Origin: a virus
Lineage: Duplodnaviria > Heunggongvirae > Uroviricota > Caudoviricetes
Reading direction: 5' to 3' (one strand)
Virus record (IMG/VR): IMGVR_UViG_3300011584_000017
Location: 1 to 35,849 of that record
DNA: 35,849 bases
A program made the position numbers and the translations under genes. Every line of letters begins with the position of its first letter. The first letter of the stretch is position 1. This document shows positions 698 to 35,849 of the stretch, piece by piece. A model generated the notes under the pieces. That model saw only the letters and a program-made list of their open reading frames with translations, was not told the origin of the DNA and ran no database searches.

Positions 698-1060
698 GGG
701 GCTGATTCTGGATTCGACGGGATTTGCGAAACCCAAGGTGCATGCCGAGGGGCGGTTGGCCTCGTAAAAAGCCGCAAAAAATAGTCGCAAACGACGAAAA
801 CTACGCTTTAGCAGCTTAATAACCTGCTTAGAGCCCTCTCTCCCTAGCCTCCGCTCTTAGGACGGGGATCAAGAGAGGTCAAACCCAAAAGAGATCGCGT
901 GGAAGCCCTGCCTGGGGTTGAAGCGTTAAAACTTAATCAGGCTAGTTTGTTAGTGGCGTGTCCGTCCGCAGCTGGCAAGCGAATGTAAAGACTGACTAAG
1001 CATGTAGTACCGAGGATGTAGGAATTTCGGACGCGGGTTCAACTCCCGCCAGCTCCACCA
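698..1060 (+). ncRNA. ssrA: tmRNA (transfer-messenger RNA, SsrA)
   Basis: Starts GGGGCTGATTCTGGATTCGACGG (tRNA-like 5' end) and ends ...GGTTCAACTCCCGCCAGCTCCACCA; internal tag reading frame at 787-819 encodes ANDENYALAA followed by TAA; about 363 nt. Confidence 0.96.
787..819 (+). other. tmRNA mRNA-like domain: proteolysis tag reading frame (ANDENYALAA-stop)
   Basis: GCA AAC GAC GAA AAC TAC GCT TTA GCA GCT TAA read directly inside the tmRNA. Confidence 0.9.
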
Positions 1061-1070
1061 AATAAATCAA

Positions 1071-1103
1071 GGGGTTACGTGAAAGCGTAGCCCCTTTTTC
1101 TTT
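1071..1103 (+). terminator. Rho-independent terminator of ssrA
   Basis: Hairpin ggggttacg-tgaaag-cgtagcccc (one G-U pair) followed by TTTTTCTTT, 10 nt after the tmRNA CCA end. Confidence 0.75.
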
Positions 1104-1183
1104 GGTAATGGCGGCAAAATGGCGACAGACTTTTGCGTCCATCTTGCCTGTCGCCATCTTGAAATCATGCAAAGAGGTTTCAC

Positions 1184-1666
1184 ATGGAAGAACTTCACTT
1201 TGTTTACATCAATGCAAATGGTCGTATCGCTGTTCACTCTATACAGAGCATCAGTTATAGCGAAAATCATATACAGGGCATTTGTAAGAACACCGATCGA
1301 ATAAAAACCTTCCGAAAAGACTGCATTCTTAAACAGTACGATTCACCAGAACAAGCCATTCAGGAATGCGCGTCATTCCTCCCCGAAAGCTACTCACATC
1401 TCACTAAGCAGTCTGGTCCGAAAAAAAATACATTCGATGTATGTTTCACCGGATTTAAGAAAGCAGATAAAGAAAGATTGGTTGATAAGGCGAATGAACA
1501 AGGATTAACGGTAAGAACCTCTGTAACCCAAAGCCTTCAGATGCTCTGTTGCGGTTACAATGCAGGCCCATCAAAAGTATCGGCAGCCCGGATGAAAGGC
1601 ACAATCATCATAGATGAGCCTGGCTTTATACATTTTCTTGAAACGGGTGAGATCCCAGATGAATAA
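1184..1666 (+). CDS. Hypothetical protein with C-terminal BRCT-like domain (prophage cargo next to the attachment site)
   Basis: 160-aa ORF, AT-rich, RBS agagg 8 nt before ATG. The C-terminal ~75 aa (VCFTGF...GLTVRTSVTQSLQMLCCGYNAGPSKVSAARMKGTIIIDEPGFIHFL) follows the pattern of the BRCT domain of NAD-dependent DNA ligase; the N-terminal half is possibly WYL/SH3-like (weak). Confidence 0.6.
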   Translation: MEELHFVYINANGRIAVHSIQSISYSENHIQGICKNTDRIKTFRKDCILKQYDSPEQAIQECASFLPESYSHLTKQSGPKKNTFDVCFTGFKKADKERLVDKANEQGLTVRTSVTQSLQMLCCGYNAGPSKVSAARMKGTIIIDEPGFIHFLETGEIPDE

Positions 1667-1690
1667 AAACCTGCCGTAGCAGGTTCTCTT
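1661..1690. terminator. Hairpin terminator between the convergent BRCT-like ORF and ogr (strongest for the minus strand)
   Basis: Stem aacctgc-cgta-gcaggtt at 1668-1685; on the minus strand it is followed by TTTTATT. Confidence 0.5.
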
Positions 1691-1692
1691 TC

Positions 1693-1911
1693 TCAAAAAT
1701 TCATATGCCCCTGACCACCTGGCAATGGATGTGGAGGAGCAGTAGCAATCAGTGCGGGTGTCACAATAAACCGGACCACTGTTTCATGGGTAACAAAAGT
1801 GCTCCCGCAGTTAATATTTTGGCACTGGCAGTAACGCTCTTTGGTGCTTTCAGTTACTTGAAAACTGCTCCTTGTGTGTGCCGCATGACCACACTTTGGA
1901 CAATTCATCAT
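1693..1911 (-). CDS. ogr: Late-gene transcriptional activator Ogr (Cys4 zinc finger)
   Basis: 72-aa product from the internal ATG at 1911 (MMNCPKCGHAAH...CQCQNINC...HPLPGGQ); CxxC...CxxxxC zinc-finger pattern and overall similarity to P2 Ogr; located after D as in P2. Confidence 0.85.
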   Translation of the reverse strand: MMNCPKCGHAAHTRSSFQVTESTKERYCQCQNINCGSTFVTHETVVRFIVTPALIATAPPHPLPGGQGHMNF

Positions 1912-25996: not shown

Positions 25997-26674
25997 CTAG
26001 AACGTGACAGCCTTGTCAAAGCCAGAAATAATTGTATAAGAAATAGACGAGTTATCAGCCTTGTTCACTTTGAACTTGGCACCTTTGTAAGCGATAACGT
26101 CACTTCCCTTAGAATCTACAGAAAAATCTGTTGTAAATGCTGCACGAGCCATATCGTTTGCAAATTCACGATAGGTGAACTTCATTACACCGCCTGCATT
26201 TCCATTGTATTCGATAGTCTTAACCAATGAGTTACTAACTCGACACAGCCCATCAGGAACACGTTTGATAGAAATTTCTGATGCAGTATAAGAAGTACCA
26301 TTTGGCGGTGATATCTCATTTTTTGCAGCATCGTAACTAACATAATCAACATAGTTACCGATTTGCCCATAGAGATTTTTTAACGCAACAGCTTGAGGGT
26401 TATGATAATTGCGGTAAATTCCATTCCCCTCACTGCAATATGTACCAGCAGCGATAGAAGACAATGCACCATTAGCCGCACCAAGTTCTAGTACGTCCGT
26501 TTTAAATCCAGTAGCAGATGTGATAATGGGATCGCCCATGTAGGCGGTAGCACTTTGCCCAATAGCAGGCTTCACCACTTCAATAGCAGTGATATTTCGG
26601 TTAGAAGCATGTGGCACGCAACCAGTTAGGATTACAGCAAGAGATATTGGTAACGCTACATTATTAATTTTCAT
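25997..26674 (-). CDS. Putative lipoprotein (candidate superinfection-exclusion / surface protein); prophage cargo
   Basis: 225 aa from ATG 26674; signal peptide with lipobox MKINNVALPISLAVILTGC; Gly/Ser/Thr/Tyr/Asn-rich mature part ending in a C-terminal Phe; AT-rich; flanked by its own terminators. Confidence 0.7.
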   Translation of the reverse strand: MKINNVALPISLAVILTGCVPHASNRNITAIEVVKPAIGQSATAYMGDPIITSATGFKTDVLELGAANGALSSIAAGTYCSEGNGIYRNYHNPQAVALKNLYGQIGNYVDYVSYDAAKNEISPPNGTSYTASEISIKRVPDGLCRVSNSLVKTIEYNGNAGGVMKFTYREFANDMARAAFTTDFSVDSKGSDVIAYKGAKFKVNKADNSSISYTIISGFDKAVTF

Positions 26675-26695
26675 TTTTAGCCTATTATTCTTTTC

Positions 26696-26733
26696 TTGAC
26701 AAAAAACAAGGCGATATCTGATTGACATCGCCT
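26696..26733 (-). terminator. Terminator of the SOS-regulated tum/DinI-like operon
   Basis: Hairpin aggcgat...atcgcct followed by a U-run (UGUUUUUUG) on the minus strand. Confidence 0.45.
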
Positions 26734-26787
26734 CTCACTCATATGTAACCCTTTTTGATTAGTAAAAACAAGCGTCTATTGACAAAA

Positions 26788-27021
26788 TCAATGCAGCCAG
26801 CTGTCGTCTTCCCACACCTTCTGCATAATTTTCATCACTTGTTTTCTTTCTTCGTCCAGTTGCAGTCCGGTCAGTTCCACACCGTTAGAGCTACCTTTAC
26901 GGATACGGATTACCGTTTTGGGATACAGGGGGCGCAGATTGCGGTAAAGCTCGGATTCAAGGGCGTCCAGGGTAGACTGGCTAATCTTCTGCTCTTTATC
27001 GATCATTATTTCAATGCGCAT
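26788..27021 (-). CDS. DinI-family protein (Tum C-terminal-domain-like, SOS-induced)
   Basis: 77 aa from ATG 27021 (MRIEIMIDKEQKISQSTLDALESELYRNL...VWEDDSWLH), clear DinI-like sequence; RBS GAGGTG 6 nt upstream; the longer track ORF from 27093 is an artefactual extension. Confidence 0.8.
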   Translation of the reverse strand: MRIEIMIDKEQKISQSTLDALESELYRNLRPLYPKTVIRIRKGSSNGVELTGLQLDEERKQVMKIMQKVWEDDSWLH

Positions 27022-27031
27022 AAAAGTCACC

Positions 27032-27220
27032 TCAGCTGATGACATCCATTGAGCGGTTGTATTCGTGGCTTCTGATTTTTGCCATGAGTTCATCAGTCAA
27101 TTCAGAAACCCACTGCAGAGCCAGCTCCTTCTCTTCATCACTACACTCACTAGCCGCTACAAGCTTAAGAAAAAAATCAATGCGCTGGAGCTTCAAAGAC
27201 TCCAAAAAATAGTCCTGCAT
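27032..27220 (-). CDS. Small acidic protein, first gene of the LexA-controlled operon (candidate antirepressor/Tum N-terminal-like)
   Basis: 62-aa ORF with RBS GGAGG; its stop TGA lies inside the RBS of the DinI-like gene (translational coupling). Confidence 0.55.
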   Translation of the reverse strand: MQDYFLESLKLQRIDFFLKLVAASECSDEEKELALQWVSELTDELMAKIRSHEYNRSMDVIS

Positions 27221-27374: not shown

Positions 27375-29789
27375 TTAATACAGGTTCCGCCACTTATCAT
27401 CTTCCTGCAAACGCTGGTTCCGATAGAAGATACGCAGGCCTGCTCCTGACGGAATACTGCCGCCGCGAAGGAGTAAATCGACCTCTTTCTCGCTGCCATC
27501 AAATCCTCTGGATTTCAGTTCATAGACGAGCTGCTGTCGTTGATGGTCTGTAATTCGCTGTTTGTAGTCTCTACGCCGTTTCGGTTTCACCAGACGTAAC
27601 CTTGCAGCCAGTTCCCGGCGCCCCTTTTTGTTCATACTGTGCAGGTAATCGTGCAACTCCTTGTCATCCATGCGGGTAAAGTCCGTTCTGGGGCCCCCAT
27701 CAGCTGATTTATCTTTCTCCTGTTGGTTCAAATTTTCAGCAAGGGGACAGTTATTGCCACGAGTCCAAGGGGCGCAAGCGCCCTGGTCGGCTGCCGCCTC
27801 CTGAACGTCAACGGCCTTACGAACCATTTTCCACTTCACTGCATGAGTGCAGATCTTGCCCTCTGCAATGGGTGACCAGATGCCATAAATACGAATACCG
27901 TGATCGCCATAGGCGGTCGGCTCTTCGTTGATTTCATAAGCGGTTCTGATGAGGTGATATTTACGGGGAACCAGTACGCCGCCCTGCTTCATGATGTAGG
28001 TGGCATAGCAACCAGCATCAGCTGCAGCCAGAATGGCATCAAGGCGCGGGTTATCCAGTACCGGCGCACCTGCTTTTTTGTCACCCTGTTGCCTTGCCGC
28101 CTGACCAGCCAGCAATCGCAGTTCACGATAAGCCTGACGCCCCGGAATGCCAAAGAAGCGGAATTGCTGAACACGATGCAGAGACGCCCAGGCATTAACG
28201 TATTCAGCGTTATCACGCAGGGATTTACCCGTTTCCTTGCTGATCTCGCCAGCCAGACCACGCCCGTCAATGTTCTTACTGATGTATTTCGCGATGTAGC
28301 TTGTCGGCGTTCCTTTGCGCGGGTTTATCAGCTCAGATTTAAAGCGTGGACCAGTGTTATTACCCAGTTCCTCGCGGTCTTCACGGATGGCAAATTTACG
28401 CAACAATGCAGTAATGGCGCGGCGGTCTTTTTTGCGCATGAAACACAACAGGTGCCAGTGAACTGTACCGTCATGATGCGGCTCAGCCACCCGCACGCCA
28501 TACCAGCGCAACCCGGCTTTGTGCATCGCCTTACGAAATGCAGCAAACATGCCGACCAGATAATCGCTGCTTTGTCTTACCGTCGCATTTGTCCAGGTTG
28601 GGTTTGGTCTGCCGTTATTGAGCGTGGAATGGAAACGTGACGGACAGGTAATGGTGTAGAAAACGGCGCAGTCACCGCGCATTTCCGCGATAAGCTCCAG
28701 ACCTTTAACACAGGCCATCATCTCATTGCGGCGGTGCGCCGGGTTGCTGCTGCTGGCGTTTACCACGTCTTCCATATCCAGCGTGTCGCCCTCTTCGTTC
28801 ACCAGTTCATGAGAACGGAAAAACTCCAGTGACTTGCGGCGCTGCTCACGTTTATGCATCACGGCTTCATAGCTGACATAGGGAGATGCTTTTTTGCTGA
28901 CCAGGCAGACAGCACGCAACTGCTCTTCCCGCCATTCGCAACGCATTTTCCATAATTTCCGGTACCACCAGTCGGCGCACAACATACGCGCCAGCGAACC
29001 CGGAATGAGTTCATAGGGCACGGGTTTACGGCGGTTTCTTTTCCGACGGAGTTGCTCAAACGCAGGCGGGATGACATCCAGACGCAGGGTTTCCGCTGCC
29101 ACCTTTTCCCATGTCTTGCGGATTTCTTCTGGCTTAACGTCATCGGTGGCATACAAATCACCACAAGCTGCATCAAGGCACATGCTCATATGCGCAGCGA
29201 CAAGGGTAGACAGGCGTTTCACCTGATCCTGACTCATTTCAGGCAGGATCAGCAGGCCGTCCAGCCCTACATGGCTTGCCATAAAACGAAAAGATGCAGA
29301 TAGCTGGCTGTCGCGTACATGCTCCAGTCGTTCCAGACATGGCTTAATCGTCTCACGTAAATAGCGGGAATAAGCCTTTGGCCTGCCCAGGCTGCTGAAG
29401 TATTCAATACGTTGCATCAGCGGCTTGCTGATATGAGAAGGCTGGGCGTTGACGTCCGCCAGAATGACCATATCCGGATTAAAACGCTGCTGCTCATGCG
29501 CCAGCTTTGCCCGGCTAATGAGCTTATCCTGCTCCATTTCGTGCTGGACAGGATCACGTGATTCATTAAAAAAATAACGCTCCCAGACCTGATCACTCAG
29601 TGCCTCGCGGCGCAACTGTTCCTGCTCGTTATCGGCAGCGTACAGAGTGATCAGGTTTGAAAGCGCAGAAACCGGCGCAACTTCCGCCGGGTCCAGATAA
29701 GGGTTAATGGCCTTTTTCGGGCTGTTCCATGAGAACGCTGCGGCAACCTCGTTAAAGCCGTAGCAGTTGTTCATATCGGCATGGCTCAT
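27375..29789 (-). CDS. A: Replication initiation protein A (rolling-circle initiator)
   Basis: 804-aa ORF in the gpA position at the end of the early operon; ATGA overlap with the upstream methylase gene. Confidence 0.88.
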
Positions 29790-30643
29790 GCACGTACTCC
29801 GTACACGGCAGAACTATCCACGCCACGCGAATAATCAAATCCCACCCAGCAGCGCGGCCCGGAAACAGCAATGATTTCTGTTGCTGATTTACCCTCGCCA
29901 GCTGCCACACCGATGCTGCGTTTTACCTTGATATAGTGGTGAGTAAAATTGCGATACAGCGAACGGATCAGGGATGTGTCACTGTTAGAAACAATGACCG
30001 GATGTCCTTCTGATGACCGATGTTCAAGAACGGATGCCAGGTGATACTGGTCATCTTCAGTGAAACCATCAGTGTGATAGCCGGAAAACGTACCGTCATA
30101 CGGCGGATCGCAATACACCACATCCCCCGCCTTCAACATCGCCAGCGTTTCATCAAAGCTGGCGCAGATAAACGTTGCTCGCTGGGCTTTTTCTGCAAAT
30201 GCGCGAATTTCTTTTTCAGGGAAATACGGATTTTTATAATTACCGTAGGGAATGTTGAAATGCCCGCTCTTGTTATAGCGACATAAACCACGGTAACCGT
30301 GACGATTGAGATACAGAAAATATACCGCTTTCATGAAATCAGTAATTTCAGTGGAGTAATTAAACTCCTGCCTTATGTTGTAATAAGCCACCTCTCTGTT
30401 TGCTTCCTCAAATAAAGCTCTGGCACGAGATATAAACGCCTCACAATCAGCAGCAACCTTTTTATAGAGGTTGATTAAATCAGGATTAATATCCGCAACA
30501 AGATAGCTGGGGTAATCCGTCTCCATCATCACTGCACAGGAACCCGCGAAAGGTTCAACCAGTCGCGGACCAGCAGGAAGATGTTTTTTCAGTTCGAACA
30601 TAATGGCGGTTTTATTTCCCGCCCATTTCAGGATGGTGCTCAT
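29786..30643 (-). CDS. dam: DNA adenine methyltransferase (Dam family, orphan)
   Basis: 285 aa from ATG 30643 ([12 protein letters not shown]...FAGSCAV...DPPY): SAM-binding and DPPY catalytic motifs of N6-adenine MTases; no adjacent restriction endonuclease gene. Confidence 0.88.
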
Positions 30644-30867
30644 ACAGTACCTCCGTTGTAATGTTTGCCTTTCAGCTCTGCGATTTCCTGACAGGTAATG
30701 CAAAGTTGCACACCCGGAATGGCACGGCGGCGTGCTGGCGGAATTGGCGCTTCACACTCAACGCAAAGCACGCGGGACACGCCCGGCGTTTTGGCACGGG
30801 CAGCACGGATGTGGCGCTGGCGTTCTTCTTCAACGCGCTGCTGTACGAGATCCATTGCATCAGCCAT
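30640..30867 (-). CDS. TraR/DksA-family C4 zinc-finger protein (P2 Orf82-like)
   Basis: 75 aa with CVEC...CITC zinc-finger; ATGA overlap with dam. Confidence 0.7.
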   Translation of the reverse strand: MADAMDLVQQRVEEERQRHIRAARAKTPGVSRVLCVECEAPIPPARRRAIPGVQLCITCQEIAELKGKHYNGGTV

Positions 30868-33134: not shown

Positions 33135-33767
33135 ATGTTAAACATCAGAATGGGTTCCGATACGGGAGGTAAGGCAGCTATTGAGAGGCTGCTTAAGGCT
33201 TATGGATTCACAACTAAGCAGGCATTAAGCGAGCACCTGAATGTCTCAAAAAGTACTATGGCAAACAGAGTGTTACGTGACAGCTTTCCTGCTGACTGGA
33301 TAATTCAGTGTGCACTAGAAACCGGTGTTTCGTTACTTTGGTTAGCCACAGGACAGGGAAGCATGAAAGAAGGATACGAGTCTGAGAAAAGATCTCATAA
33401 CGAGAACAAACAAGCAATTAAACCGTTATCCAAACTCATAACTCCATCTATTCCTAAAGGAACCTTGGAAAATGGGCAACTCAGTATTGATGAAGAGATT
33501 TTCCTAGACCACAGCATATTACCTGCAGATTATGAAGAATCGATGTTCTTAGAAACCCCTACTGATTGTTATCTCATCGATAAATCAGTTAAACAAGTCA
33601 GCAATGGATTCTGGCTTATCAATATTGATGGAATGATTATTATTGCAAAAATCATGCGGATTCCCGGCAATAAAATTGTAGTAAATCAAGATGAAGCGTC
33701 TTTCGAGTGCTCTGCTGATGATGTGGAAGTTATTGGGCGTGCAGTCAAAGTAATAAAGAGTATCTAA
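33135..33767 (+). CDS. cI: Immunity repressor CI (phage 186 CI type, no LexA-like autocleavage domain seen)
   Basis: 210-aa ORF with N-terminal HTH (TTKQALSEHLNVSKSTMANRV); no G-x-S-M peptidase motif; co-directional with int and ends 2 nt before it. Confidence 0.82.
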   Translation: MLNIRMGSDTGGKAAIERLLKAYGFTTKQALSEHLNVSKSTMANRVLRDSFPADWIIQCALETGVSLLWLATGQGSMKEGYESEKRSHNENKQAIKPLSKLITPSIPKGTLENGQLSIDEEIFLDHSILPADYEESMFLETPTDCYLIDKSVKQVSNGFWLINIDGMIIIAKIMRIPGNKIVVNQDEASFECSADDVEVIGRAVKVIKSI

Positions 33768-33769
33768 AC

Positions 33770-34786
33770 ATGACTGTCAGAAAACAGCCAAACGGTAAAT
33801 GGTTGTGCGAGTGCTATCCCAATGGACGCAATGGCAAGCGCGTGCGTAAGCAATTTGCTACGAAAGGCGAAGCCATTGCTTTTGAAAGCTTCACAATGGA
33901 AGAAGTGAACAAAAAACCATGGCTGGGGGAAAAGGAAGATCGGCGACACCTATCGGAATTAATTGAGCAGTGGTATTCCCTGTATGGTCAAACACTCGCA
34001 GACCCCAAGCGCCTCATGGCGAAACTTAGAATTATCTGTAATGGTCTAGGCGATCCCATCGCCTCAGAACTGACAGCTGGTGACTTTACGAAATACCGTG
34101 AAGCACGGTTAAAAGGTGAAGTAAGAAATGAAGATGGCACGCTTATGTCGCCCGTTAAGCCCCGCACGGTAAACCTTGAACAGCGCAATCTATCATCGGT
34201 GTTCGGTACATTAAAAAAACTAGGACACTGGTCAGCACCAAACCCGCTGGCAGGACTTCCGACCTTCAAAATTGCCGAAGGTGAGCTAGCTTTTCTTTCC
34301 GCGGACGAAATCAAACGCCTGCTTAATGCCTGCGCCGAATCTCAAAATGCCAGCCTACTAATGATTGCAAAAATATGTTTGGCTACTGGTGCACGATGGA
34401 GTGAAGCAGAAAACCTGCAGGGTCACCAAATATCGAAATACCGAATTACTTATACAAAGACCAAAGGCAAGAAAAACAGAACAGTACCGATATCACAGGA
34501 ACTGTATGACGAACTCCCGAAGAACAGAGGGAAGTTATTCACGCCATGTAGAAAAGCCTTTGAACGAGCAGTAAAGCGAGCCGGCATCGAGTTGCCAGAG
34601 GGCCAGTGCACCCACGTACTGCGCCATACATTCGCCAGCCATTTTATGATGAACGGCGGAAATATACTGGTACTGCGAGATATTCTTGGTCATGCTGACA
34701 TAAAAATGACGATGGTTTACGCTCACTTTTCTCCGGATCATCTTGAAGATGCTGTAACAAAAAACCCTTTGTATACTTTGGTTTAA
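33770..34786 (+). CDS. int: Tyrosine integrase (P2 Int family)
   Basis: 338-aa ORF with C-terminal catalytic region (...HVLRHTFASHFMMNGGNILVLRDILGHADIKMTMVYAHF) containing the R-H-R-Y signature. Confidence 0.95.
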   Translation: MTVRKQPNGKWLCECYPNGRNGKRVRKQFATKGEAIAFESFTMEEVNKKPWLGEKEDRRHLSELIEQWYSLYGQTLADPKRLMAKLRIICNGLGDPIASELTAGDFTKYREARLKGEVRNEDGTLMSPVKPRTVNLEQRNLSSVFGTLKKLGHWSAPNPLAGLPTFKIAEGELAFLSADEIKRLLNACAESQNASLLMIAKICLATGARWSEAENLQGHQISKYRITYTKTKGKKNRTVPISQELYDELPKNRGKLFTPCRKAFERAVKRAGIELPEGQCTHVLRHTFASHFMMNGGNILVLRDILGHADIKMTMVYAHFSPDHLEDAVTKNPLYTLV

Positions 34787-34790
34787 CAAA

Positions 34791-35849
34791 ATGAAAATTA
34801 AACTAACATCAATCATTGCCTATACCATTATATCTATTATTATTGCACTAGGTTTAGTGTATACCAATAGACCAAGAATCTTTGTTTTATTTAGCATATT
34901 TCATATCCTTGGTGTGGTTGTTATATTCTATTATTTCAACTGGTTAAAACTTAATGAGAAAAACCTATTAAAGCAGCCATTATTTATAGCTTCAATTATC
35001 ATACCGTTAGAAATGTTTATTTTGTATGGCCTTTGGGCATGGAAAGGTCACAGTTTAGATTTTACGTCAGAAGGCTTTAATCAATTCTTAGATATCTCTA
35101 AATTACCATTGTTAATTTTAGCTTCTTCTGTTCCTCTTGCATCAATAGTAAATAATATACACAGAACAACTCAGACAGAGAATCAGATTGAAAAAACACA
35201 AAAACAAATCAATCTTGTAATTGAAAAGAATAAAACTGATTCTTATTACTCACATCTAAAAAGTTACGCGGATATTTTTAAAACACTACCGGCTTTTAAA
35301 ATATCAAGATTAAACAAAAATGATGGAAGCACGGAATACATTGAATTATCTGTCGTTCATCCTTACACTCTCTACAAAAATATATTCAAATCATCTTCAA
35401 TCGATAATGGATATAGCACCACGGTCGAAGATGGCTTCATAAAAAAAACAAAACACCTTTATAACAAAATAAACAAAAGCCTTACATCAAAAAATACTAC
35501 TCATGATATCCAATTATCTAATCTGCAACTAATAGAATCACACATAATTGAACTATGCCGATTACTTGGGATTGACTATAAATACCAAGAACATCTATTT
35601 CTAATAATTTTTGAGAATCCCAAACATAATATAGAATCAATAACTATCTCATATAGTGATGAAAAACAACTTAAGCAAATGCTTTGGGGGCTAAGAAACA
35701 TTCTCATTGAACTATATATTTTAATTGACGAAGACCCCAATATTTTTCTAGCAAGCAAAAATACTGGTAACGTCATCCCTGATTATGCCCTATATTTTGA
35801 AAATCTGTTTACACACATTCTCCCTATCTCAAATAAAATGCGTATGTGA
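34791..35849 (+). CDS. Hypothetical membrane protein (about 4 N-terminal TM helices plus Lys/Asn/Ile-rich soluble domain); candidate prophage-expressed exclusion/defence factor
   Basis: 352-aa ORF starting 4 nt after the int stop, ending with TGA at the last window base; extremely AT-rich compared with the phage core; weak RBS. Confidence 0.6.
   Translation: MKIKLTSIIAYTIISIIIALGLVYTNRPRIFVLFSIFHILGVVVIFYYFNWLKLNEKNLLKQPLFIASIIIPLEMFILYGLWAWKGHSLDFTSEGFNQFLDISKLPLLILASSVPLASIVNNIHRTTQTENQIEKTQKQINLVIEKNKTDSYYSHLKSYADIFKTLPAFKISRLNKNDGSTEYIELSVVHPYTLYKNIFKSSSIDNGYSTTVEDGFIKKTKHLYNKINKSLTSKNTTHDIQLSNLQLIESHIIELCRLLGIDYKYQEHLFLIIFENPKHNIESITISYSDEKQLKQMLWGLRNILIELYILIDEDPNIFLASKNTGNVIPDYALYFENLFTHILPISNKMRM

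What the first reader, a model, noticed from the sequence alone, without database searches (positions are those of the whole stretch)
1184..1666. Small BRCT-domain protein as attachment-site-proximal prophage cargo
A 160-aa AT-rich ORF lies between ssrA and ogr, where P2 has no gene. Its C-terminal half matches the BRCT fold pattern of NAD-dependent ligase; the N-terminal half is possibly a WYL/SH3-like ligand-binding module. A stand-alone BRCT protein in a phage is unusual; it could bind phosphorylated targets or DNA ends and act as a moron (defence, anti-defence or host-modulating). The gene is convergent with ogr and they share a hairpin.
Basis: partly seen in the sequence, partly recalled or inferred. 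Interest (0 to 1): 0.45.

Follow-up and report, generated by a model that had tools for sequence, protein, structure and literature searches.

The report
Phage WYL–BRCT lysogeny-module accessory protein
This is a real, conserved but uncharacterised phage gene whose small protein joins a ligand/single-strand-DNA-sensing WYL barrel to a ligase-type, DNA-end-binding BRCT domain; it is a regular member of the lysogeny control region of P2-like phages rather than a rare oddity, and what it does is still untested.

Summary
The ORF at 1184-1666 (+, 160 aa, 41.7% GC) lies between ssrA and ogr. It is phage DNA, is under purifying selection, and ends in a hairpin shared with convergent ogr.

- Residues 84-154 form a single BRCT of the LigA/RFC1 type, with an invariant TG...K pocket.
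- Residues 3-52 form a WYL (Sm-like) barrel whose best structural matches are PafBC, CapW, BrxR and DriD.

The framing as a rare stand-alone BRCT moron is not supported. The protein is a WYL-BRCT fusion belonging to phrog_2561 (mislabelled "DNA ligase"). A profile search found 2609 clusters at 50% identity.

In P2-like prophages of many genera the gene sits directly after the cI repressor, often in the order cI, WYL-BRCT, variable defence cargo, int. In this enterobacterial lineage it lies across attP from int, so integration places it next to ssrA. That junction is contiguous in 165 of the 170 E. coli genomes that carry the gene.

The protein has no catalytic or HTH domain. About 30% of the closest family representatives are membrane-anchored.

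My best guess, which is inferred and not shown, is a non-enzymatic binder of ssDNA and 5'-phosphate DNA ends that protects the lysogen. This copy carries a private R47C change in the WYL signature motif.

The parts
698..1060 (+). ssrA (tmRNA) gene. Its 3' end holds the attL core.
   Evidence: ARAGORN tmRNA with tag ANDENYALAA.
1016..1060 (.). att common core, the stretch shared by ssrA and phage attP. The crossover lies somewhere inside it.
   Evidence: Alignment with the attP regions of phages Cartapus and MLG42. Identity starts at window 1016 and continues rightward into phage DNA.
1069..1096 (+). Phage-supplied intrinsic terminator for ssrA. It sits between ssrA and the ORF.
   Evidence: 12-bp stem plus T-run. 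The same sequence is present in the phage attP regions.
1109..1127 (+). Two direct repeats, TGGCGGCA and TGGCGACA, 11 bp start-to-start. Probable Int arm-type binding sites.
   Evidence: Conserved in orthologous prophages, including ones integrated at other tRNA genes. Analogous to the annotated P2 arm repeats TGTGGACA x2. The assignment is inferred.
1149..1156 (-). Inverted third copy of the repeat (TGTCGCCA). Present only in the E. coli lineage.
   Evidence: Read.
1173..1177 (+). Shine-Dalgarno-like AGAGG, 6 nt before the ATG.
   Evidence: Sequence. AAAGGTG/AGAGG is conserved in orthologues.
1184..1666 (+). WYL-BRCT protein gene (160 aa plus stop).
1190..1402 (+). WYL domain: five-stranded Sm-like barrel (residues 3-52) plus two helices (to residue 73). 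Signature residues are Y8 and T42-F43-R44-x-D46-(R47)-I48.
1322..1324 (+). Codon 47, TGC (Cys). A private R47C substitution in the WYL signature motif of this copy.
   Evidence: 55 of 55 other E. coli-type alleles and 46 of 54 family members have Arg.
1433..1645 (+). Single BRCT domain (residues 84-154) of the LigA/RFC1 type. T89, G90, F91 and K131 are invariant; K96 is nearly so.
1668..1685 (.). Bidirectional terminator hairpin shared with convergent ogr.
   Evidence: + strand. The T-run on the - strand was read.
1693..1911 (-). ogr (late-gene activator), convergent neighbour.
   Evidence: ogr/Delta-like zinc finger.
33135..34786 (+). cI (33135-33767, 186-type) and int (33770-34786). These are the lysogeny genes from which this gene is separated by integration. 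In the circular phage the order is cI, int, cargo, attP, WYL-BRCT.
   Evidence: Pfam Phage_CI_repr and Phage_CI_C. Gene order in Cartapus and MLG42.

Best explanation
SHOWN.
- The ORF is a genuine gene of a P2-like (Elveevirus/186-type) prophage.
- It encodes a two-domain protein with no enzymatic or HTH domain. The N-terminal half is a WYL barrel. The C-terminal half is a single BRCT of the LigA/RFC1 'ligase-homology' type with an invariant T-G...K pocket.
- It belongs to a large uncharacterised family that is a conserved accessory gene of the lysogeny module of P2-like phages. The gene normally starts within about 2-20 nt of the end of the cI repressor gene, on the same strand, and lies upstream of int.
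- In this enterobacterial lineage it lies on the far side of attP. Integration into ssrA therefore makes it the first prophage gene.

INFERRED mechanism.
- The WYL domain binds a short single-stranded nucleic-acid ligand, as in CapW, DriD and PafBC.
- The BRCT domain binds a 5'-phosphorylated DNA end or junction, as the isolated RFC1 BRCT does.
- The protein would then recognise and occupy, without catalysis, a DNA structure that combines ssDNA with a 5'-phosphate end: a gap, a resected end or a cohesive end.

INFERRED payoff.
- The gene rides with the repressor.
- It lies next to slots filled by defence candidates.
- About 30% of its closest relatives are membrane-anchored.
- The most likely benefit is therefore protection of the lysogen, by capturing or capping the DNA ends or replication intermediates of incoming foreign DNA.
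For: Gene reality and phage origin.

Architecture:
- BRCT.
- WYL.
- Conserved residues Y8, T42, F43, R44, T89, G90, F91, K96 and K131.
- T89-G90 and K131 align with the TG and GP(K/S)K of yeast RFC1 and T. filiformis LigA BRCT.

Functions of the parent domains (from papers):
- The isolated RFC1 BRCT binds recessed 5'-phosphate DNA with Kd about 10 nM (Kobayashi 2006/2010, as cited in PMC9293004).
- WYL domains of CapW and DriD bind ssDNA (PMC11662680; PMC9186387).

Lysogeny-module context:
- PHL101: cI then gene, 3-nt gap.
- Burkholderia phage: repressor, one gene, then this gene.
- L010: cI, gene, int.
- L011: repressor, Flk_N, gene, YebY, int.
- Of 49 species-level genome loci, 11 lie directly after a 186-type CI and 2 more have one gene between.
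- 14 of 30 close co-oriented upstream neighbours are repressor-like.
- This holds for distant relatives too: membrane-anchored P0181 after an S24 repressor, and the 405-aa P0157 between repressor and int.

Neighbouring cargo: genes between this gene and int are defence candidates, namely KAP NTPase/PDC-S20 and PDC-S39.

Membrane anchoring: 45 of the best 150 family representatives have TM-like segments, 43 of them among the 63 proteins longer than 200 aa.
Against: - No binding or phenotype data exist for any family member (literature searches found none).
- The two arginines that flank the WYL motif and contact ssDNA in CapW (RWHVR) are not conserved here (H-I-Q-G-I-C). The ligand may therefore not be ssDNA.
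- In full RFC the BRCT contributes little to 5'-P discrimination.
- No consensus sigma-70 promoter lies between the ssrA terminator and the ATG. Expression in this lysogen is therefore unproven.
- PADLOC gives only a BRCT-local match (PDC-S48, E=2e-7), not a system-level one.
- This copy carries R47C at a conserved WYL residue and could be impaired.
- A position in the lysogeny operon is equally compatible with a role in the switch or in establishing lysogeny.
Confidence: 0.4

Rival explanations
1. DNA-damage sensor or modulator of the lysis-lysogeny switch. The WYL domain senses ssDNA produced by damage. The BRCT domain then contacts CI, or the RecA-loading junction. The outcome would be either SOS-independent induction, or damping of spontaneous SOS and induction. 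The gene order would parallel repressor, anti-repressor, int (immR-immA-int) in ICEBs1; that parallel is from my own knowledge.
For: - Tight, operon-like coupling to cI in many P2-like prophages: gaps of 2-20 nt.
- Characterised WYL proteins are DNA-damage or ssDNA sensors.
- A recessed 5' end next to ssDNA is also the RecFOR loading substrate (established knowledge).
Against: - This prophage already encodes a DinI/Tum-like protein at 26788-27093, the 186-type route to induction.
- Relatives are also paired with S24 self-cleaving repressors, which need no extra sensor.
- About 30% of relatives are membrane-anchored, which is odd for an anti-repressor.
- In the E. coli lineage the gene is detached from cI by integration.
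- No known BRCT-CI contact.
Confidence: 0.2
2. Helper for the phage's own DNA transactions when lysogeny is established. Examples: protecting or aligning the 5'-phosphorylated cohesive ends, or recruiting host LigA or the clamp to seal them. It would be transcribed with cI-int from the circular genome, before integration separates the genes.
For: - In the circular phage map the gene lies downstream of cI-int on the same strand.
- The BRCT is of the ligase type.
- P2-like phages have 5'-protruding cos ends (established knowledge).
Against: - The phage-borne copy of the ssrA terminator lies between int and the gene in the circular form too.
- P2 itself lacks the gene, so it is not needed for the basic cycle.
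- The protein could only be made after the incoming DNA has already entered and, most likely, circularised.
- The membrane-anchored relatives are not explained.
Confidence: 0.15
3. Ligand-sensing adaptor that regulates the neighbouring variable cargo (defence) genes or their products. The BRCT domain would act as a phospho-protein or protein-binding module rather than a DNA binder.
For: - Defence candidates sit immediately next to the gene in several prophages.
- In the circular form of this phage the int-proximal cargo gene is its upstream neighbour across attP.
- WYL proteins commonly control defence systems.
Against: - The neighbouring cargo differs from phage to phage or is absent, while this gene stays constant.
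- There is no HTH for transcriptional control.
- The BRCT is closest to the DNA-binding LigA/RFC1 subgroup, not to tandem phosphopeptide-binding BRCTs.
Confidence: 0.1
4. The database labels are correct: it is a DNA ligase (PHROG, RefSeq) or an exonuclease (Cartapus annotation).
For: phrog_2561 is labelled 'DNA ligase'. There are weak NCBIfam hits to LigA and to a DEDDh exonuclease.
Against: All such matches cover only the terminal BRCT of those enzymes: LigA positions 584-650 of 652, and exonuclease positions 229-307 of 331. Scores are 13-26 bits against cutoffs of 369-1051. At 160 aa there is no room for an adenylation, OB, Zn, HhH or DEDD domain.
Confidence: 0.01
5. It is host DNA, or a chance or decaying ORF with no function.
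For: Low GC. One nonsense allele (L091) and one frameshifted copy (CP019275) exist. This copy carries R47C.
Against: - Present in packaged phage genomes.
- Absent from 97% of E. coli genomes, although all have ssrA.
- dN/dS 0.14-0.21, and 50 of 51 copies intact.
- Confident two-domain fold.
- Conserved from Enterobacteriaceae to Burkholderia and Pasteurellaceae.
Confidence: 0.02

Closest known systems
BRCT domains of bacterial NAD+-dependent DNA ligase (LigA) and of the RFC large subunit (RFC1 'ligase homology region')
   Different: It is not attached to a ligase or clamp-loader core. The partner domain is a WYL barrel. DNA binding has not been tested.
WYL-domain regulators (wHTH-WYL-WCX: CapW, BrxR, PafBC, DriD)
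   Different: No wHTH and no WCX. The Arg residues flanking the WYL motif that contact ssDNA in CapW are absent. The output module is a BRCT rather than a DNA-binding HTH.
phrog_2561 ('DNA ligase'), UniRef/PGAP 'BRCT domain-containing protein', and Mannheimia phage PHL101 ORF34
   Same: Full-length match (E=6e-76, residues 1-159). PHL101 ORF34 is 33% identical over 97% of the length. Same architecture.
   Different: Nothing structural; this is the same family. The 'DNA ligase' name is an annotation artefact of the BRCT match.
Superinfection-exclusion and host-protecting genes carried in lysogeny modules: lambda rexAB after cI, lactococcal Sie2009 between repressor and int, P2 tin and old (from my own knowledge, plus PMC9122126 for tin and old)
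   Same: Positioned with the repressor and int genes. Small, non-essential for the phage (absent from P2). Many relatives are membrane-anchored. Neighbouring slots hold defence candidates.
   Different: No sequence or fold relationship. No phenotype has been shown. The known P2 hotspots are elsewhere: gpA-portal, tail genes, int-att.
PADLOC candidate PDC-S48
   Same: Its C-terminal approximately 70 residues match the BRCT here (E=2e-7).
   Different: The match is BRCT-only (profile positions 336-406 of 411). The rest of PDC-S48 has no counterpart, so this is not a member.

Membership tests
BRCT domain (LigA/RFC1 single-BRCT subgroup) | beta-alpha-beta-beta-alpha-beta-alpha BRCT fold | tested here: met
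BRCT domain (LigA/RFC1 single-BRCT subgroup) | Significant sequence-profile match | tested here: met
   This copy alone scores 19.6 bits, under the 21.3 cutoff. However, 37 of 54 family members match, and the family profile hits RFC1 and LigA BRCTs at about 6e-5.
BRCT domain (LigA/RFC1 single-BRCT subgroup) | Phosphate-pocket residues (T/S-G after beta1, and Lys in alpha2) | tested here: met
   T89, G90 and K131 are invariant in 54 of 54 sequences and align with the TG and K of RFC1 and LigA.
BRCT domain (LigA/RFC1 single-BRCT subgroup) | Binding of 5'-phosphorylated DNA ends | not testable with these tools
   Needs EMSA or anisotropy. Known only for the isolated RFC1 BRCT.
WYL domain | Five-stranded Sm-like barrel most similar to solved WYL domains | tested here: met
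WYL domain | Pfam PF13280 match | tested here: inconclusive
   No hit for this copy. It matches 4 of 54 close and 22 of 55 longer relatives, best E=1.2e-8. The N-terminal profile against PDB sequences is not significant (PafBC E=2.3).
WYL domain | ssDNA-contacting residues as in CapW and DriD | tested here: inconclusive
   R44 and the FRxDRI signature are conserved, but the two Arg residues flanking the WYL strand are replaced (H-I-Q-G-I-C). This copy also has R47C.
wHTH-WYL-WCX transcription regulators (BrxR, CapW, PafBC, DriD) | N-terminal winged HTH and C-terminal WCX domain | tested here: not met
   No HTH match. The protein starts with the WYL barrel, which is followed by a BRCT.
NAD+-dependent DNA ligase (database label) | Adenylation (KxDG), OB, Zn-finger and HhH domains | tested here: not met
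   Only the terminal BRCT aligns: 13-19 bits against cutoffs of 369-1051. The whole protein is 160 aa.
DEDDh exonuclease (Cartapus label) | DEDD exonuclease domain | tested here: not met
   The match covers only positions 229-307 of 331, the C-terminal BRCT: 25.8 bits against a cutoff of 389.
Known or candidate anti-phage defence systems (PADLOC) | Full-length match to a system component | tested here: not met
   Only BRCT-local matches to PDC-S48 and SspE.
Variable prophage hotspot cargo (moron) | Presence or absence, or replacement, among otherwise similar prophages | tested here: not met
   Linked to its ogr/att module in 170-176 of about 185 genomes. 165 genomes have the contiguous ssrA junction. 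It holds a fixed position after cI across genera. Low GC is the only moron-like trait.
Lysogeny (cI-int) operon gene of P2-like phages | Same strand as, and adjacent to, the repressor or int gene | tested here: met
   In this lineage it is separated from int by cargo and attP.
Lysogeny (cI-int) operon gene of P2-like phages | Expression in the lysogen | not testable with these tools
   No consensus promoter was found. Needs RNA-seq or 5'RACE.

The most novel reading that the evidence does not exclude
WYL-BRCT proteins are a new, effector-less class of lysogen-protecting factor conserved across P2-like phages. They would recognise the ssDNA/5'-phosphate ends of incoming or replicating foreign DNA, at the membrane in the anchored forms, and block its circularisation, ligation or replication simply by occupying it. 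In the enterobacterial lineage, expression would be rewired by integration: the gene would be read through from the very strongly transcribed ssrA gene only in the prophage state.
Probability: 0.2. Interest if true: 0.7.

Novelty: new variant of a known kind. Interest (0 to 1): 0.42.

Why it matters
P2-like prophages are present in about a quarter of E. coli genomes (gpD-like sequence in 1311 of 5426). They are a recognised reservoir of anti-phage genes. The work I read has focused on variable hotspots. This gene is different: it is a conserved, unstudied partner of the repressor gene, found across Enterobacteriaceae, Pasteurellaceae, Vibrionaceae, Pseudomonas and Burkholderia.

Its domain logic couples a WYL sensor to a ligase-type BRCT, instead of to an HTH or an enzyme. 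That predicts a defined and cheaply testable ligand: ssDNA next to a 5'-phosphate end.

If it proves to be an exclusion factor or a switch component, it would add a new output type to WYL signalling. It would also give the first function for a stand-alone bacterial or phage BRCT module. A practical gain is already available: the 'DNA ligase' and 'exonuclease' annotations attached to this family should be corrected.

Tried and rejected
- Pfam, NCBIfam and PADLOC on the single sequence gave only sub-threshold or BRCT-local hits. Family-level scans were needed.
- A search for attR or direct repeats of the att core in the window found nothing. The window ends in the cargo gene after int, before attR.
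- The promoter scan found no sigma-70 consensus between 1097 and 1183. Inspecting orthologous upstream regions by eye found no conserved -35/-10 and no Ogr-type TGT-N12-ACA element.
- Literature searches for BRCT with prophage, P2-like, anti-phage, WYL, or the protein accessions found no study of the family. The two P2 hotspot papers do not mention it.
- The Kobayashi 2010 paper on RFC1 BRCT residues is not held. Residue equivalence therefore rests on the alignment.
- The afdb50 fold library was unavailable.
- The idea that the protein replaces a Tum-type anti-repressor was weakened by finding a DinI/Tum-like gene in this same prophage.

Full report
**What is there**

The window starts with smpB (1-483) and an intact tmRNA gene (698-1060). 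A 160-aa ORF runs from 1184 to 1666 on the + strand, with AGAGG 6 nt before the ATG. It converges on ogr, which is 1693-1911(-) as annotated in identical E. coli loci. After ogr come gpD, gpU and the tape-measure gene of a P2-like prophage. The two convergent genes share the hairpin at 1668-1685. The ORF has 41.7% GC, against 53.5% for gpD and 50.7% for the window. P2 itself has no gene at this position: its ogr terminator is followed directly by the Int P arm, the IHF site and the attP core.

**It is phage DNA, and a real gene**

I aligned the ssrA-to-ORF interval with the int-proximal regions of the sequenced phages Cartapus and Yersinia MLG42. Identity begins inside ssrA at window 1016 and continues rightward. 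So 1016-1060 is the att core, and the strong terminator at 1069-1096 and everything beyond it are phage-supplied. The ORF is present in packaged phage genomes: 500465-1, Cartapus and MLG42.

All 5426 complete E. coli genomes have ssrA, but only 176 carry the ORF. Of the 170 with at least 80% of it, 165 show the contiguous ssrA-ORF junction. All four loci that I inspected have the same layout.

dN/dS is 0.14 against Cartapus and 0.21 on average among 22 E. coli-type alleles. Of 51 IMG/VR copies, 50 are intact. The refutation condition of "conserved host sequence" is not met.

**Domain architecture**

The protein is a WYL-BRCT fusion with no HTH and no catalytic domain. The "DNA ligase" (PHROG, RefSeq) and "exonuclease" (Cartapus) labels come only from the BRCT match.

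**The family is large and has a characteristic home**

The protein matches phrog_2561 over its full length (E=6e-76). A word-indexed search gave 122 homologues. An exhaustive profile search gave 2609 clusters at 50% identity with E<=1e-3, of which 203 have E<=1e-30. The WYL+BRCT combination was listed in passing by Makarova et al. 2014 (PMC4012209). I found no experimental work on it.

Its genomic context is consistent:
- Mannheimia phage PHL101: it starts 3 nt after the cI-like repressor gene.
- A Burkholderia P2-like phage: the order is repressor, one gene, this gene, then convergent gpD.
- Metagenomic P2-like contigs: the order is cI, gene, int, or repressor, Flk_N, gene, YebY, int.
- 49 species-dereplicated genome loci: six enteric ones are ssrA (or a tRNA), gene, then convergent ogr/gpD. 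Eleven have it directly after a 186-type CI, and two more have one gene between.
- 14 of 30 close co-oriented upstream neighbours are repressor-like, either Phage_CI_repr or HTH_3 with or without Peptidase_S24.
- Distant relatives keep the same slot. The membrane-anchored P0181 follows an S24 repressor in a P2-like prophage. The 405-aa P0157 sits between a repressor and int.

The genes between it and int vary. They include defence candidates: KAP NTPase/PDC-S20 and PDC-S39.

So the gene is a conserved accessory member of the P2-like lysogeny module, next to a cargo slot. It is not variable cargo itself. In E. coli it travels with a specific ogr/att/int module (185 genomes with this ogr allele against 170-176 with the gene), whereas gpD-like sequence occurs in 1311 genomes.

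**What is special about this lineage**

In the circular phage the order is cI, int, cargo, attP, WYL-BRCT, then convergent ogr. Integration therefore moves the gene to the opposite prophage end, next to ssrA.

Its upstream region contains the phage-borne ssrA terminator and two direct repeats, TGGCG(G/A)CA, 11 bp apart (1109-1127). An inverted third copy lies at 1149-1156. The direct repeats are conserved even in orthologous prophages integrated at other tRNA genes. They mirror the annotated TGTGGACA arm repeats of P2, so they are probably Int arm sites.

No consensus sigma-70 promoter lies between the terminator and the ATG. How the gene is transcribed in the lysogen is open. Possibilities are read-through from ssrA, a non-consensus or activated promoter, or expression only from the circular form.

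**Mechanism: shown versus inferred**

Shown: the two folds, their conserved residues, the absence of enzymatic or HTH modules, and the lysogeny-module context.

From the literature:
- The isolated RFC1 BRCT binds recessed 5'-phosphate DNA tightly (Kobayashi 2006/2010, as cited in PMC9293004).
- WYL domains of CapW and DriD bind ssDNA (PMC11662680).

Inferred: the protein recognises a structure that combines ssDNA with a 5'-phosphorylated end (a gap, a resected end or a cohesive end) and acts by occupying it.

Three things make a lysogen-protecting or exclusion role the best single guess, at about 0.3-0.4:
- The gene rides with the repressor.
- It lies beside defence cargo.
- 45 of the 150 best family representatives carry TM-like segments, mostly N-terminal; 43 of these are among the 63 proteins longer than 200 aa.

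Caveats:
- The arginines flanking the WYL strand that contact ssDNA in CapW are not conserved here.
- In whole RFC the BRCT adds little 5'-P specificity.
- Expression is unproven.

**Rivals**

- A damage sensor or modulator of the switch fits the tight coupling to cI. It is weakened by the DinI/Tum-like gene in this same prophage (26788-27093), by pairing with self-cleaving S24 repressors, and by the membrane anchors.
- A helper for the phage's own end-joining or establishment is possible, but P2 lacks the gene.
- An adaptor for neighbouring cargo is weakened because the cargo varies while this gene stays constant.
- A true ligase or exonuclease, and host or junk DNA, are refuted.

**This particular copy**

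Codon 47 is TGC (Cys). All 55 other E. coli-type alleles examined, and 46 of 54 family members, have Arg at this position, within the WYL signature FRxDRI. The copy may be a hypomorph, so experiments should use the R47 allele as reference.

**Verdict**

The "unusual stand-alone BRCT moron" framing should be replaced by [quoted passage not shown]. The sequence family is already in databases, where it is mis-named. The architecture is a new variant among WYL sensors, and no member has a known function. Interest is moderate: a clear, cheap experimental path and a plausible role in phage-phage conflict or switch control, but no evidence yet of anything categorically new.

Noticed in passing
window 1322-1324 (codon 47 of the ORF): This copy has Cys where all 55 other E. 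coli-type alleles and 46 of 54 family members have Arg, inside the WYL signature FRxDRI. It may be a hypomorphic allele.
   Followed up: partly
window 1109-1127 and 1149-1156; L129, L131, L134, L140 upstream regions: Direct repeats TGGCG(G/A)CA spaced 11 bp, with an inverted copy in E. coli, lie between the att-site terminator and the gene. They are conserved even in orthologous prophages integrated at different tRNA genes, so the arm sites stay constant while the core changes.
   Followed up: partly
window 1069-1183: No consensus promoter lies between the phage-supplied ssrA terminator and the ATG. The gene may depend on read-through from the highly transcribed tmRNA gene, which would make its expression specific to the integrated state.
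   Followed up: partly
window 34791-35849: A 352-aa ORF directly after int ends exactly at the window edge. It has no Pfam or PADLOC match. Phage Cartapus carries a different 401-aa gene (annotated as RES/NAD+-binding) in the same int-att slot, which a 2026 preprint lists as a minor P2 defence hotspot.
   Followed up: partly
window 25997-27093: A DinI-domain (Tum-like) ORF lies at 26788-27093, and a 243-aa ORF with no Pfam match at 25997-26728. Both lie beyond gpA, in the region corresponding to the main P2 hotspot.
   Followed up: no
window 29786-30703: A D12-class N6-adenine DNA methyltransferase gene lies in the early operon, next to the replication gene A.
   Followed up: no
L034 7644-9161, L036 6468-7919, L039 6527-8311: In Brenneria, Hafnia and Aeromonas prophages, the slot between the WYL-BRCT gene and int holds defence candidates: KAP-family NTPase (PDC-S20, PifA-like) and PDC-S39 (DUF7380/DUF4209).
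   Followed up: partly
proteins P0130, P0157, P0169, P0182, P0187 (C-terminal) and P0121, P0124, P0127 (N-terminal): Longer relatives share an unannotated domain of about 200 aa (motif RRxxLIAxFxxGYAxGWxFAV...WTQGHxFxFxxGD) fused to the WYL-BRCT module. Others carry tandem modules or extra BRCTs. This probably corresponds to phrog_36782.
   Followed up: no
L009 7366-7866 (Ca. Pseudothioglobus island): Outside P2-like phages, a homologue sits in a small integrative island with an integrase, AlpA, a DNA methylase and a convergent Mrr-type nuclease gene.
   Followed up: no
L091 (IMG/VR) and CP019275.1: Occasional inactivated copies: one nonsense allele (C123*) and one frameshifted copy. Truncated clusters also exist (P0002, P0017, P0047, P0051), some of which may be contig-end artefacts.
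   Followed up: partly
BFVD H9EB15 (Vibrio phage SSP002, 162 aa): A structure-level, full-length match to a 'putative DNA ligase' of a phage outside the P2 group suggests that the architecture is not confined to Peduoviridae.
   Followed up: no
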